NCBI RefSeq assembly: GCF_054482525.1 | Contig: NZ_CM137006.1 | Reading direction: 5' to 3' (one strand) | DNA length: 64,000 bases | Part shown: in pieces, positions 61,001 to 64,000 of the stretch | Numbering within the stretch: the first letter of the stretch is position 1 | How the letters are laid out: every line of letters starts with the position of its first letter | Position numbers: made by a program

Positions 61001-64000
61001 TTAGGTGCAGTTATGATAAAACATTCGCACTCACTATTTGGTTGGCTAGGAATGCCTTGGGCTCTTTGCTCTGAAGCTAAAAAATATCGAAATCAAAAGA
61101 AAGATATTGTGCATAATAATGAACCACCTATTTATGCATATAATGACGCCTTTGAAGCAGAACGAGTAAAAAAACATCTTTCTTATAGATTAGGACAGAC
61201 ATTACTTAAAAATATTAAGTCTCCATTAGGTTGGATTAAACTCCCATTTGCACTAGCACAAAATGTACGAGAGTTTCGATTAGAACGAGGTGAGTAATAT
61301 ACGATGAAATCAATATCTATGATTTCCCAACCGGAGGAAACATGGCTGGATTGTTTAAGTTCGATATATCCACCGACAGGCGTCATGGTCATTGGTGCTG
61401 GAAATGGAAGCAGTATTTGGGTCCAATGGCTTTACAAAAAATGTGTGAATCCTGTCATTTTGGTTGAAGGGAATCAGAAGCAGTTTCAGTTGTTAAAACA
61501 TAATATTCCTTTAAATAAAGAATGGGTTTTCTTGAATAAGATTGTAATATTCGGGAGTGAGCCACATATTTTTCATTATGTAGATAACTCACGAGAAAAC
61601 GGGTTGTTATCTCCAGAGCAATTACATTCACTATGGCCAAATATAAAGTGTATAGGTGAAGAGGCAATACATAATGGTATCACACTTAATAGCCTACAAA
61701 AAAGTGAAAACTTACCCTTGAATTGGCTATTTATTGATTGCCTACCCGCACCAGAAATTCTTGAGCATGCGGGGGATATGTTACATCGAATAGAGGTTGT
61801 AGTAAGTAGGGTAGTCATACAAGATGAACCATTTTCAGCTAGCCTAAAAAATTTAGACAAAGTTTTGAATGAAGTAGGCATGCGGCGGGTCCATTTATTT
61901 CAAGAACGTCATCCTTCTATAGGCTATGCTATTTATACTAGAAATGTAGCATTAAAAATAACTGAGGCAGAAAGTCTAAAAGAAGAAATTAAACAACAGC
62001 AGCGGAAGATAAGTATATTACAGTCTAGCTTGGAACAGCAATCTGTTGAGTATGAATTAAAAATTCATGATATTGAAAAAAAACACAAGTTAGAATTTGA
62101 AAAAATCCTGGATAAAAAAAATCATATTAAGAATGAATTATTAAAACTAAAAAATAAATTGGAGCTATCTGTTATTAATCTGAATGAGTTCCATGCTGTT
62201 AATGAAAACATTTTATCTAAATATGAAATTCATACAGATAATGTATGCACGATGATGAAAAAGATAGAGGAACAGCAAAAGGAAATATATACTCAAATTA
62301 ATAAAAATTTACCCGTTTTAATAAAAAAAGAATTAGATGCAAAACTTAACAAATCTGTTCGTCATGTAGAGGCCTTCATATCCATTCAACAATACTTGAC
62401 TCATGGTGACTGTATAACAGGATTTCATGGTTGGCCAATAAGCCCGGATATGGGGGTATTTCTCTTAGAAAAAATACGTGAGCGAAATTATGATGCTATC
62501 ATTGAGTTTGGAAGTGGAGTTTCAACTTTATTGATAGCTAAAGGTCTTATGGCATTTAATCTTTTCAAAGATAATGAAGATAAATGCTTCATTAGTTTCG
62601 ATCATGATGAGTATTATTTTACTAATACACAAAGTCTGCTTGCTTATCATGGTGTCGAATCAATGGTGGATCTATATTTAACTCCGCTAAAAGAATGGTC
62701 CGATTGTACAGGATGCTATAAATATTACTCTTGTGAAGATGTATTAATTGAGTTAGCAAAGCGTATACAAGATGGTTCTAAGAGATTATTAGTCCTTGTA
62801 GATGGACCGCCTGGTAATACATGCGCTAATGCACGTTATCCTGCACTTCCATTTATGTCTCACTTTATATCTAATCACGAAATTGATTGGGTCTTGGATG
62901 ATGCTTATCGAGATGAAGAAAAGTTAACGGCTGAGTTATGGAAAAAATATTGGTCAGCGGAGAATATACAGTTCACTCATGATTTTATAAAAAATGAAAA
63001 AGGGATGTTTTTTGCGACTACTTATGGAAGAAAATCTACTTCGTAATATTATTGAGTATCATTCAAATTATAAAGGAGAATATAAGAAGTGAGTTTAAAA
63101 TTAGGAAATGCTTACTTTAGAGATGGACAATACAAACTTGCCATACAAGAGTATAAAAAAATATCAAAAGATAGCCCTTTGTACCCATACGCTATATTAA
63201 ATATTGAAAGAATTGAAAGTTTAGGATTCGATTGCAAAGAACAAGAATCTGAAATTAATGATGCCCCTCTGTTATCAATTATAATGCCAGTATTTAATGT
63301 TGGGCCTTATCTTGACGCTAGTATACTATCAGTTCTATCCCAAACCTTAGTTGATTTTGAGTTAATTATTATCAATGATGCTTCAACAGATGATGGAAAA
63401 CGTATCATTGAAATGTATGAAAATATTGATTCAAGAATAAAATTTATTGATCTACGTTTCAACACTCTTGGTGGCGCAGGTATACCTAGTAACATTGGCA
63501 TCAATGCAGCTAAAGGTAAATATATCGGTTTTGTTGATAGCGATGACTGGGTGTCGAAAGATGCTTTCGAAAAATTAGTTACTACGGCAGAAAAATTTAA
63601 TGCTGAATTGGTCATTGGAGACTTTAATACTTTTGATCAGGAAACCAGACTTGTTAGCCCAGCTTATGATAAGGAAAGGTGGAAAGGCATACCTGTCGAA
63701 ACTATAATATCTGGAGTAACCACACCACAACTATTTAGGTTATCCCCAGTCCCCTGGCGAAAATTATATCTTACGAAATTTATTAAGAGTAATGGTATAG
63801 AGTACCCTGAAGGAGATTATTTTTATGAGGATAATCCTTTGCATTGGTTTGTGTTATCTAGTGCAGAACGTGTTGTAATGGTTGATCATATCATTAGTTA
63901 CCATCGTATGGCCCGCGAAGGGCAAACAATGAGTTCAGCTCTATATAAATTAGCGGCCCTTGCATCACATCTTAATACAATTTCTAATTTTCTCTTAAAA

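What the first reader, a model, noticed from the sequence alone, without database searches (positions are those of the whole stretch)
61304..63046. Region 2 protein B carries two Rossmann-type glycine motifs flanking a coiled coil (possible dual methyltransferase-like enzyme)
The N-terminal VMVIGAGNGSS followed by an acidic ILVEGNQ strand, and the C-terminal IIEFGSGVSTLLIA followed by SFDHDE, both fit motif I plus the post-I acidic residue of class I SAM-dependent methyltransferases. Between them lies about 150 residues of heptad-rich sequence. Two such domains on one coiled-coil scaffold would be consistent with a terminal-modifying or chain-regulating enzyme.
Basis: inference. Interest (0 to 1): 0.5.

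Follow-up and report, generated by a model that had tools for sequence, protein, structure and literature searches.

The report
Two-headed coiled-coil methyltransferase in capsule locus
This E. coli K53/K93 capsule gene encodes an uncharacterised protein with two different methyltransferase-type domains joined by a long coiled coil, an arrangement that resembles the enzymes that cap and measure O-antigen chains, which this type of capsule pathway is thought to lack.

Summary
The ORF at 61304-63046 (580 aa) has VMVIGAGNGSS (residues 27-37) followed by ILVEGNQ, and IIEFGSGVSTLLIA (399-412) followed by SFDHDE. Between them lies a 150-residue segment (215-367) that is rich in E/K/Q, almost free of G/P and heptad-periodic.

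The N-domain is a divergent FkbM-family class I methyltransferase. The C-domain belongs to Methyltransf_24 and resembles the metal-dependent COMT-type O-methyltransferases. No NAD-dehydrogenase or GT-B fold appeared among the listed matches.

The locus is the E. coli K53/K93 group 2 kps cluster. RefSeq calls the gene "hypothetical". A 2026 catalogue annotated only its C-domain, as SAM-methyltransferase superfamily.

The gene always follows a KfiB-like coiled-coil protein (DUF8374, sulfotransferase-like) in Kps-type ABC-transporter capsule loci of many Proteobacteria. The linker varies from 111 to 474 aa. In eight loci the two halves are separate, adjacent ORFs.

My best reading is a bifunctional SAM-dependent O-methyltransferase docked on the capsule assembly complex. 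It probably makes a sub-stoichiometric, perhaps chain-capping, modification. Activity, substrate and any ruler role are untested.

The parts
61304..63046 (+). Gene B (K53_K93_12; RefSeq WP_001361240 'hypothetical protein'), 580 aa. Architecture: FkbM-like methyltransferase, coiled coil, Methyltransf_24-like methyltransferase.
   Evidence: ORF. RefSeq annotation. Name and InterProScan rows in PMC13171606 supplement.
61331..61945 (+). N-terminal class I methyltransferase domain (residues 10-214), a divergent FkbM-family domain.
61382..61414 (+). N-domain motif I, VMVIGAGNGSS (residues 27-37), after strand beta1. G31 is invariant; G33 and G35 are at least 90% conserved.
61457..61477 (+). N-domain strand beta2, ILVEGNQ (residues 52-58). 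E55 is invariant and sits at the position of the acidic residue that binds the SAM ribose in class I methyltransferases.
   Evidence: The profile aligns this segment with motif I and beta2 of KsgA/Dim1 methyltransferases.
61946..62404 (+). Coiled-coil linker (residues 215-367): helices 215-293 and 304-367 with a low-confidence break at 294-303.
   Evidence: Variable length in relatives.
62426..63028 (+). C-terminal class I methyltransferase domain (residues 375-575), Methyltransf_24 / COMT-like.
   Evidence: Gene3D 3.40.50.150 at 379-564, E=2.2e-11. Foldseek best COMT hit E=4.8e-9. Family profile against PDB gives COMT at 1e-6 and 3cvo at 2e-6. 14 of 24 relatives hit PF13578.
62498..62539 (+). 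C-domain motif I, IIEFGSGVSTLLIA (residues 399-412). E401, F402, G403, S404, G405, S407 and T408 are invariant.
62594..62611 (+). C-domain end of beta2, SFDHDE (residues 431-436). D433 aligns with the ribose-binding Glu of COMT ('TMEKN'). H434 is invariant among close homologues.
62801..62812 (+). Invariant DGPP (residues 500-503) at the end of beta4. D500 sits where COMT-type enzymes carry their first metal ligand (by position, inferred).
   Evidence: 3cvo aligns 'VVLVDG' here.
62897..62920 (+). Invariant D532-D533..R536..E539 after beta5. This is the position of the COMT 'DN' metal ligands (by position, inferred).
59546..61297 (+). Gene A (K53_K93_13), a KfiB-like DUF8374 protein. It has a sulfotransferase-like P-loop domain, a coiled coil (about 331-466) and two C-terminal repeats. 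Its stop codon lies 6 nt before the ATG of gene B.
58619..59311 (+). kpsT, the ABC transporter ATPase (230 aa), with no C-terminal carbohydrate-binding extension.
57846..58622 (+). kpsM, the ABC transporter permease.
57806..57813 (+). ops / JUMPStart core GGCGGTAG, upstream of kpsM.
63089..64000 (+). Start of the dual-GT2 glycosyltransferase gene (664 aa in the full locus), which runs off the end of the window.

Best explanation
Gene B encodes a soluble, two-headed SAM-dependent methyltransferase of the K53/K93 capsule assembly machinery. Its N-terminal head is a divergent FkbM-family domain. Its C-terminal head is a Methyltransf_24 domain of the metal-dependent, COMT-like O-methyltransferase type. 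A coiled coil of about 150 residues joins them.

The gene is co-transcribed and probably translationally coupled with gene A. Gene A is a KfiB-like protein with a degenerate sulfotransferase-like domain, its own coiled coil and two C-terminal repeats that I take to be membrane anchors. I infer that A and B assemble through their coiled coils at the cytoplasmic face of the inner membrane, next to the GT2 polymerases. There B would transfer methyl groups from SAM to hydroxyl groups of the growing GlcA/Galf polymer.

As I recall it, the published repeat unit carries acetyl but no methyl. The modification is therefore most likely sub-stoichiometric, and the simplest place for it is the non-reducing end.

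Shown here: the ORF, the motifs, both folds, the family links, the coiled coil, the synteny and the fusion/fission pattern. Inferred: catalytic competence, metal dependence, the A-B complex, the polysaccharide substrate and the terminal position.
For: Folds:
- The full-length AF2 model has pLDDT 84.8. Its top 50 Foldseek PDB hits are all COMT/CCoAOMT-type O-methyltransferases, best E=4.8e-9.

Family links:
- A profile of the C-domain family against PDB finds COMT at 1e-6 and the methyltransferase-like protein 3cvo at 2e-6.
- 14 of 24 C-domain relatives match PF13578.
- 7 of 19 N-domain relatives match PF05050 FkbM, best 4e-17.
- The query itself gives TIGR01444 at E=0.012.
- A published InterProScan run gives Gene3D SAM-methyltransferase at residues 379-564, E=2.2e-11.

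Conservation falls on cofactor positions. In the N-domain these are G31, G33, G35 and E55. In the C-domain they are EFGSGxST, D/E433, D500-G-P-P, R511, D532-D533, R536 and E539.

Context:
- The locus is the E. coli K53/K93 kps cluster.
- In 5 of 5 looked-up genomes from other genera, B follows a DUF8374 protein inside kpsMT/E/D/C/S loci and precedes a dual GT2, Ugd and a further GT2.
- Protein A is 34% identical to one of those DUF8374 proteins, E=2e-102.
- Among the loci from 100,044 species genomes, plus the five looked up and the window, the first pair of domain profiles finds the fused architecture in 23. Of these, 16 have a KpsM-like gene, 17 a KpsE-like gene and 14 an A homologue, all within the up to 8-10 kb of flank fetched on each side of the gene.
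- The two halves occur as adjacent, overlapping or nearly abutting ORFs in 8 loci (FkbM hit on one such N-half).

Operon:
- The gap between A and B is 6 nt, with a GAGG motif upstream.
- There is no terminator-like site between kpsT and the GT2 gene.
- An ops element lies before kpsM.
Against: - The query itself fails the curated cut-offs. TIGR01444 scores 16.1 bits against a cut-off of 37.7, and PF13578 gives E=0.92. Family membership therefore rests on relatives and on predicted structure.
- N-domain TM-scores to solved methyltransferases are only about 0.5.
- No methyl group is known in the K53/K93 polymer. This rests on my memory of Bax et al. 1988, which I did not read here.
- There is no direct evidence of SAM binding, metal binding or an A-B complex.
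- KpsT has no carbohydrate-binding extension of the kind that reads terminal caps in O-antigen systems.
- K5 has the A-like KfiB without any B-like gene, so A does not need B.
Confidence: 0.5

Rival explanations
1. B is a true chain terminator and molecular ruler, as in O-antigen systems. Methylation of the non-reducing terminal sugar would stop polymerisation. The coiled coils of A and B would set the distance between the membrane-bound polymerase and the capping heads, so that linker length determines capsule chain length. This is a stronger version of the best explanation and is listed separately because it makes extra claims.
For: - A coiled-coil protein carrying the terminator is described as the hallmark of ABC-transporter-dependent O-antigen assembly (PMC11231755).
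- The linker of B varies from 111 to 474 aa between species while both heads stay conserved.
- Partner A supplies a coiled coil and C-terminal repeats that look like membrane anchors.
- KfiB, the K5 homologue of A, is needed for capsule display. The paper read here describes it as a chaperone of membrane-localised capsule assembly.
- Linker lengths of A and B correlate weakly: Spearman 0.54, p=0.045, n=14.
Against: - The same paper states that the ABC-transporter capsule pathway (Hib) has no chain-terminating residue.
- KpsT lacks a cap-reading domain.
- The length correlation is weak, is not corrected for phylogeny, and Pearson r=0.40 is not significant.
- B has no membrane anchor or recognisable polymerase-docking region of its own.
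- Solved WbdD structures did not appear among the listed fold matches.
Confidence: 0.25
2. B decorates something other than the chain end. It could methylate internal residues at low stoichiometry, esterify GlcA carboxylates, or modify the Kdo-lipid linker. In this reading the coiled coil serves only to hold the enzyme in the assembly complex.
For: - The C-domain also occurs alone as proteins of about 250 aa in many polysaccharide loci, without a coiled coil. It often lies near Ugd and GT2 genes (Ugd in 21 and a GT2 in 25 of the 52 loci where the first profiles found only the C-domain). So it can act as an ordinary tailoring enzyme.
- COMT-like and TylF-like enzymes methylate hydroxyls next to a free hydroxyl. 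This is established knowledge, not tested here.
Against: - An internal methyl at appreciable stoichiometry should have been seen in the NMR structure work on K53/K93 (from memory).
- This reading does not explain the conserved fusion to a long, length-variable coiled coil, or the second methyltransferase head.
Confidence: 0.15
3. B is a pseudo-enzyme scaffold. Its methyltransferase-fold heads would no longer catalyse anything and would only organise the KfiB-like protein and the GT2 polymerases.
For: - The partner A looks like a sulfotransferase that has lost its PAPS-binding residues. GHPxSGY replaces the PKSGTT-type loop and LVYDxP replaces the RDP motif. The only PDB hits are to TPST1, at E=0.003.
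- Both heads of B are very divergent from curated methyltransferase families.
Against: - The invariant residues of B are exactly the cofactor-binding glycines, the beta2 acidic residues and the putative metal-binding aspartates. They stay conserved down to about 20% identity. That is the pattern of an active enzyme.
Confidence: 0.08
4. The glycine motifs belong to dinucleotide-binding (NAD/FAD) Rossmann domains or to a GT-B glycosyltransferase, not to methyltransferases.
For: A narrow N-domain profile gave its best PDB sequence hits to the NAD-binding domain of TrkA (E=4e-4) and weak hits to L-amino-acid oxidases.
Against: - Those hits cover only beta1-alphaA-beta2.
- A wider family profile instead hits KsgA/Dim1 methyltransferases.
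- All listed fold matches are methyltransferases.
- The predicted strand order ends with the beta6-beta7 hairpin typical of class I methyltransferases.
- Relatives hit FkbM and Methyltransf_24.
Confidence: 0.02

Closest known systems
WbdD (E. coli O9a / K. pneumoniae O3) and ORF6 of K. pneumoniae O7: coiled-coil chain terminators of ABC-transporter-dependent O-antigens
   Same: Both place SAM-methyltransferase head(s) on a long coiled coil, in a locus with an ABC transporter and multi-domain GT polymerases. A membrane-anchoring element and polymerase recruitment are associated with the coiled-coil protein (PMC11231755).
   Different: - B has two methyltransferase heads and no kinase.
- The heads flank the coiled coil instead of sitting at one end.
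- The presumed membrane anchor is on a separate protein (A).
- The pathway is KpsMT capsule export, with no carbohydrate-binding module on the ATPase.
- Solved WbdD structures were not among the listed fold matches.
- Terminator activity is not shown.
FkbM-family methyltransferases (Pfam PF05050, TIGR01444)
   Same: The N-domain shares the class I fold, the GxGxG motif and the beta2 Glu. It also has an insertion after beta3 and an acidic 'ID(C/x)(L/P)' segment at beta4. From memory, that segment occupies the place of the FkbM 'KIDVEGAE' motif. 7 of 19 wider relatives match PF05050.
   Different: The query scores 16.1 bits against a cut-off of 37.7 and has no Pfam hit. 'DCLPA' replaces the usual motif. 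The domain is fused to a coiled coil and a second methyltransferase.
Methyltransf_24 / COMT-CCoAOMT-type cation-dependent O-methyltransferases (PF13578, PF01596; PDB 7cvu, 6aw5, 3dul, 3cvo)
   Same: The C-domain shares the fold (Foldseek E=4.8e-9). Motif I and beta2 align with COMT. Invariant acidic residues lie after beta4 and beta5, where COMT binds Mg2+.
   Different: Identity is 12-18%. The domain has family-specific invariant motifs (WPISPD, DGPP, ARYP, DDxxRxxE). Substrate and metal dependence are unknown.
KfiB of the E. coli K5 (heparosan) cluster, for the partner protein A
   Same: The two proteins are 30% identical (PMC13171606 supplement). They share the same position next to the serotype-specific GTs and the same sulfotransferase-like plus coiled-coil build. 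KfiB is required for K5 capsule display.
   Different: The K5 cluster has no gene like B, so B is an added module found in K53, K93 and K146 and in related loci of other bacteria.

Membership tests
Class I SAM-dependent methyltransferase fold (both domains) | Alpha/beta sandwich with a seven-stranded sheet that ends in an antiparallel beta6-beta7 hairpin | tested here: met
Class I SAM-dependent methyltransferase fold (both domains) | Glycine-rich motif I after beta1 and an acidic residue at the end of beta2 | tested here: met
   N-domain: G31-A-G33-N-G35 and E55. C-domain: E401-F-G403-S-G405 and D433. All are invariant or at least 90% conserved. D433 aligns with the COMT Glu in 'TMEKN'.
Class I SAM-dependent methyltransferase fold (both domains) | Binds SAM and transfers a methyl group | not testable with these tools
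   Needs purified protein.
FkbM family (PF05050 / TIGR01444), N-domain | Scores above the family model's curated threshold | tested here: not met
   TIGR01444 gives 16.1 bits against a cut-off of 37.7, E=0.012. There is no PF05050 hit on the query. Only 1 of 53 close homologues hits at 6.7e-4.
FkbM family (PF05050 / TIGR01444), N-domain | Homology to family members through intermediate sequences | tested here: met
   An N-domain HMM finds relatives at E 1e-11 to 1e-24. 7 of 19 of these match PF05050, best 4.3e-17. A split N-half in L022 hits TIGR01444 at 2.3e-5.
Methyltransf_24 (PF13578), C-domain | Scores significantly against the Pfam model | tested here: not met
   The query gives E=0.92. 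Only 4 of 53 close homologues reach E<=0.1.
Methyltransf_24 (PF13578), C-domain | Homology through intermediate sequences and profile | tested here: met
   14 of 24 family members hit PF13578 at E<=1e-3, best 3.2e-12. The family profile against PDB finds COMT at 1e-6 and 3cvo at 2e-6. Gene3D 3.40.50.150 gives E=2.2e-11.
Cation-dependent COMT/CCoAOMT-type O-methyltransferase | Metal-binding triad: Asp after beta4 and Asp/Asn pair after beta5 | tested here: inconclusive
   D500, D532 and D533 are invariant and lie directly after predicted strands 494-499 and 526-531. No residue-level structural superposition was available, so the equivalence is by position only.
WbdD-type coiled-coil chain terminator | Extended coiled coil attached to the catalytic head | tested here: met
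   Linker length varies from 111 to 474 aa.
WbdD-type coiled-coil chain terminator | Modifies the non-reducing terminal sugar and thereby stops polymerisation | not testable with these tools
   Needs product analysis.
WbdD-type coiled-coil chain terminator | C-terminal membrane-binding helix and polymerase recruitment site in the same protein | tested here: not met
   B ends with the C-terminal methyltransferase domain. Candidate anchor repeats lie in the separate protein A.
WbdD-type coiled-coil chain terminator | Kinase domain (for methyl-phosphate caps) and a cap-reading carbohydrate-binding module on the transporter ATPase | tested here: not met
   No kinase domain was detected in B. KpsT is 230 aa with no extension. 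Not all terminators need these features.
KfiB / DUF8374 (partner protein A) | Full-length homology to DUF8374 proteins and to KfiB | tested here: met
   34% identity, E=2e-102, to a protein that carries precomputed PF28160. 30% identity to KfiB in PMC13171606. The local Pfam copy did not report PF28160 on A itself.

The most novel reading that the evidence does not exclude
Kps-type (group 2-like) ABC-transporter capsules of the K53/K93 kind possess a dedicated chain-capping and length-measuring device. The device would be a coiled-coil complex of a KfiB-like membrane scaffold and a two-headed methyltransferase. It would methylate the non-reducing end of the polymer, and its linker length would set capsule chain length. 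This would overturn the view that this pathway has no chain-terminating residue. It would also give KfiB-family proteins, long called 'chaperones', a mechanistic role as the stalk and anchor of the ruler.
Probability: 0.25. Interest if true: 0.8.

Novelty: new variant of a known kind. Interest (0 to 1): 0.58.

Why it matters
How chain length is set in ABC-transporter-dependent capsules is unresolved. A recent paper on O-antigen terminators states that one such capsule pathway (Haemophilus influenzae type b) has no chain-terminating residue (PMC11231755).

This gene gives a concrete, genetically tractable candidate in E. coli K53, K93 and K146. The family is large and uncharacterised, with 4,439 cluster representatives at E<=1e-3. 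It is tied to Kps-type loci in Beta- and Gammaproteobacteria and beyond.

If the protein caps chains, it would extend the coiled-coil ruler principle from O-antigens to capsules and explain KfiB-like proteins. It would also point to a terminal epitope that matters for vaccines and phage receptors.

If it only tailors the polymer, it still adds an unreported methyl modification to these K antigens. It also gives a function to thousands of proteins annotated as hypothetical.

Tried and rejected
1. Direct sequence searches of B against Pfam, NCBIfam and PDB gave only sub-threshold or coiled-coil hits. They could not decide the fold.

2. A narrow N-domain profile hit the TrkA NAD-binding domain best. 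I considered an NAD-Rossmann reading and rejected it after the fold searches and a wider profile.

3. I looked for a split WbdD, with kinase in A and methyltransferase in B. A's N-domain is sulfotransferase-like, not kinase-like, and its PAPS motifs look degenerate. I dropped the methyl-phosphate or methyl-sulfate cap idea as a main hypothesis.

4. Co-variation of coiled-coil lengths gave no firm signal.
   - For A against B, Spearman 0.54, p=0.045, n=14, with no phylogenetic correction. This is too weak.
   - For the tail of the split N-proteins against the lead of the split C-proteins, r=0.20, n=8, which is not significant. Five of the eight pairs are of similar length.

5. The idea that the two linker helices form an antiparallel hairpin that puts both heads side by side is suggested by the break at 294-303 and by the fission point in the split genes. 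It could not be tested: pTM is 0.46, and neither coordinates nor a multimer model were available.

6. Literature searches for capsule chain terminators, KfiB function and K53/K93 chemistry found no functional study of this protein. The 1985 K93 paper as held contained no composition data.

7. I could not tell K53 from K93, because the distinguishing acetyltransferase gene lies beyond the window.
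Full report
**What is in the window.** The last 6 kb of the window hold kpsM (57846-58622), kpsT (58619-59311) and two long ORFs. These are A (59546-61297; the mechanical ORF list starts it at a TTG at 59543) and B (61304-63046). After them comes the start of a GT2 gene that runs off the end. G+C falls from about 56% to 30-35% at about 56.5 kb.

The stretch 59300-64000 is at least 99% identical to 39 of 5,426 complete E. coli genomes. In those genomes A and B are annotated "hypothetical protein". In a complete locus the order is kpsM, kpsT, A, B, dual GT2, glf, acyltransferase, nucleotide-sugar dehydrogenase and GT2, followed by kpsS, C, U, D, E and F on the other strand.

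[quoted passage not shown] The related type K146 has a B that is 93.6% identical. The gene content (glf, ugd, acyltransferase, GT2s) fits the acetylated GlcA/Galf polymer that I recall for K53/K93. I could not read the structure paper here.

**The observation.** Translation confirms the four motifs at residues 27-37, 52-58, 399-412 and 431-436.
- The segment 215-367 is 36% E/K/Q and 1% G/P. Its heptad contrast exceeds all 500 shuffles of the same segment (0.42 against 0.28 +/- 0.04).
- AlphaFold2 predicts two long helices with a low-confidence break at 294-303.
- The published InterProScan table lists coils at 215-249 and 265-285.
- In an alignment of 53 homologues (28-93% identity) both ends are conserved, while the middle varies in sequence and length.

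The observation therefore stands and is far from chance.

**Domain assignment.** Direct sequence searches with B were uninformative.
- Pfam gave only Methyltransf_24 at E=0.92.
- NCBIfam gave FkbM at E=0.012, below its cut-off.
- PDB gave only coiled coils.

Structure prediction settled the question.
- The full-length model has pLDDT 84.8. It matches only COMT/CCoAOMT-type O-methyltransferases among the top 50 PDB entries, best E=4.8e-9.
- The same COMT entries score about 1000-fold worse with the N-domain alone. I therefore attribute the full-length hits to the C-domain. This is an inference.

Intermediate sequences then tied each head to a family.
- Of 24 stand-alone or differently fused C-domain relatives, 14 match PF13578 Methyltransf_24, best 3e-12. 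Their profile finds COMT at 1e-6 and the methyltransferase-like protein 3cvo at 2e-6 in the PDB. Motif I and the beta2 acidic residue are aligned in those hits.
- Of 19 wider N-domain relatives, 7 match PF05050 FkbM, best 4e-17. Their profile hits KsgA/Dim1 methyltransferases at motif I and beta2.
- An early hit of a narrow N-domain profile to the TrkA NAD-binding domain is explained by the shared beta1-alphaA-beta2 element.
- The published table had annotated only the C-domain, with Gene3D at E=2.2e-11.

**Signs of catalytic competence.** Conservation is concentrated on cofactor positions.
- In the N-domain these are G31, G33, G35, E55 and D145.
- In the C-domain, EFGSGxS, D500, P502, R511, D533, R536 and W546 remain invariant down to about 20% identity. 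T408, G501 and D532 are conserved in at least 90% of those sequences.
- D500 follows predicted strand 494-499, and D532-D533 follow strand 526-531. From established knowledge of COMT (D141, D169, N170), these are the positions of the Mg2+ ligands. Without a residue-level superposition the equivalence remains positional.

**Genomic context.** In Uruburuella, Iodobacter, Comamonas, Cupriavidus and Enterobacter, the B homologue lies inside a Kps-type locus (ABC-2 permease, ATPase, KpsE- and KpsD-like genes, KpsC/S). It is directly preceded by a DUF8374 protein and followed by a dual GT2, Ugd and another GT2.

A is 34% identical over its full length (E=2e-102) to one of these DUF8374 proteins. It is 30% identical to K5 KfiB.

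A scan of one genome per species returned 77 loci. I scanned these, together with the five looked-up loci and the window, with domain HMMs.
- The first pair of profiles found the fused N-coil-C architecture in 23 loci. Of these, 16 had a KpsM-like gene, 17 a KpsE-like gene and 14 an A homologue within the flank fetched.
- Wider profiles found 27 distinct fused loci, with linkers of 111-474 residues. They also found 8 loci in which an FkbM-plus-coil ORF is immediately followed (gap -16 to +16 nt) by a coil-plus-Methyltransf_24 ORF.
- Such fusion and fission is strong evidence that the two heads work together.
- The C-domain also occurs alone as proteins of about 250 aa in many polysaccharide loci.

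In the 1.84-billion-protein representative library, the family has 4,439 members at E<=1e-3 and 449 at E<=1e-30. Most of the best hits are two-stretch proteins of 500-870 aa.

**Operon structure.** Six nucleotides separate the A stop codon from the B start codon, with a GAGG motif just upstream. There is no terminator-like site between kpsT and the GT2 gene, and promoter-like sites are not enriched. An ops core, GGCGGTAG, lies 33 nt before kpsM. From established knowledge of group 2 loci, this fits RfaH-dependent read-through from region 3 into region 2.

**The partner protein A.**
- Its N-domain profile finds only protein-tyrosine sulfotransferase 1 in the PDB, at E=0.003. Pfam sulfotransferase models hit weakly. 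This agrees with the catalogue's "putative sulfotransferase" label for KfiB.
- The conserved loop is GHPxSGY, and the strand that should carry the 3'-phosphate-binding Arg reads LVYDxP. I read this as a degenerate PAPS site and hence a scaffold. This is inference from sulfotransferase motifs known to me.
- A has a coiled coil at about 331-466.
- It also has two C-terminal repeats that match the N-terminus of the Campylobacter CJJ1420 MeOPN-transferase family, E=1.4e-7. This is plausibly a shared membrane-association module.
- KfiB is required for K5 capsule display. The paper read here describes it as a chaperone of membrane-localised capsule assembly.

**Mechanism.** I judge B to be a bifunctional SAM-dependent O-methyltransferase held in the capsule assembly complex by coiled-coil contacts with A, acting on the growing polymer. 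The repeat unit is not known to be methylated, so a sub-stoichiometric modification at the non-reducing end is the most economical proposal.

This is the logic of WbdD and the newer O4/O7 terminators, in which a coiled-coil protein carrying the terminator is called the hallmark of the system (PMC11231755). The same paper states that the ABC-transporter capsule pathway of H. influenzae type b has no terminating residue. That is why a capsule terminator would be news.

Several points argue against full equivalence.
- B lacks a kinase and an anchor of its own.
- KpsT has no cap-reading module.
- WbdD structures are not among the listed fold matches.
- My test for co-varying linker lengths in A and B was weak (Spearman 0.54, p=0.045, n=14, uncorrected).

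The rivals are ordinary tailoring of internal residues or the linker, a pseudo-enzyme scaffold, and a non-methyltransferase Rossmann domain. The last is effectively excluded.

**Novelty and verdict.**
- Its fold-level interpretation is supported.
- The C-domain assignment already exists in a supplementary table, and coiled-coil "putative methyltransferases" are mentioned there for group 3 clusters.
- In what I read, the FkbM-like N-domain is not annotated. Nor are the obligatory pairing with KfiB-like proteins, the fusion/fission pattern or the size and spread of the family described.
- I found no functional study in the literature I could search.

I class this as a new variant of a known kind: a coiled-coil methyltransferase of ABC-transporter glycan assembly. 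Interest is moderate to good, because it turns capsule chain-length control into a testable question.

Noticed in passing
window 57806-57813 (+): The ops/JUMPStart core GGCGGTAG lies 33 nt upstream of the kpsM ATG at 57846. It sits inside the mechanical TTG-start ORF 57786-58622, so that longer start is an artefact. There are 5 matches in the window against 1.3 expected; the other four were not examined.
   Followed up: partly
window 57846-58622; L001 12547-13323: kpsM is intact in the window. It is flagged as a pseudogene with an internal stop in RefSeq strain KC-Dl-1, which otherwise matches 100% over 59300-64000.
   Followed up: no
window 60965-61294 (protein A residues about 475-583): Protein A has two tandem C-terminal repeats of about 45 aa (LxYxLG...GW..(M/L)P(W/F)AL). 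They match the N-terminus of NCBIfam NF058596, the Campylobacter CJJ1420 O-methyl-phosphoramidate transferase family, at E=1.4e-7. This may be a shared membrane-association module of Kps-type capsule enzymes.
   Followed up: partly
window 59546-60190 (protein A N-domain): The domain is sulfotransferase-like (only PDB hit TPST1, E=0.003). Its PAPS-binding motifs appear degenerate: GHPxSGY and LVYDxP are conserved instead of the Lys/Arg-containing loops. This suggests that KfiB-family proteins are pseudo-sulfotransferase scaffolds.
   Followed up: partly
L022 5992-8936; L023; L024 3124-6233; L025 4523-8789; L030 2111-4987; L036; L047; L058: In these loci the two halves of B are separate, abutting or overlapping ORFs: an FkbM domain plus coil, then a coil plus Methyltransf_24 domain. 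In five of the eight pairs the coil tail and the coil lead have similar lengths. This hints that the two linker halves pair with each other.
   Followed up: partly
L016 5376-7232; L020 5605-7101; L041 4786-6126: In marine Gammaproteobacteria the ORF just upstream of the B homologue is also a coiled-coil protein (SMC-like coil hits only). It is not detectably related to A, so a different protein seems to fill the same position.
   Followed up: partly
protein P0019 (ENA metagenome contig, 531 aa): This protein is 98% identical to B over 53% of B but carries radical-SAM Pfam hits (PF04055, PF13353). It is either an assembly chimera or a natural fusion.
   Followed up: no
window 59312-59545: The 234-nt spacer between kpsT and gene A is very A+T-rich. 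It contains no terminator-like hairpin and no promoter-like site beyond chance. This marks the junction between region 3 and region 2.
   Followed up: partly
window about 56500: G+C drops sharply from about 56% (type II secretion gsp genes) to 30-40% across the kps region 3/2 genes. This is typical of a horizontally acquired capsule locus.
   Followed up: no
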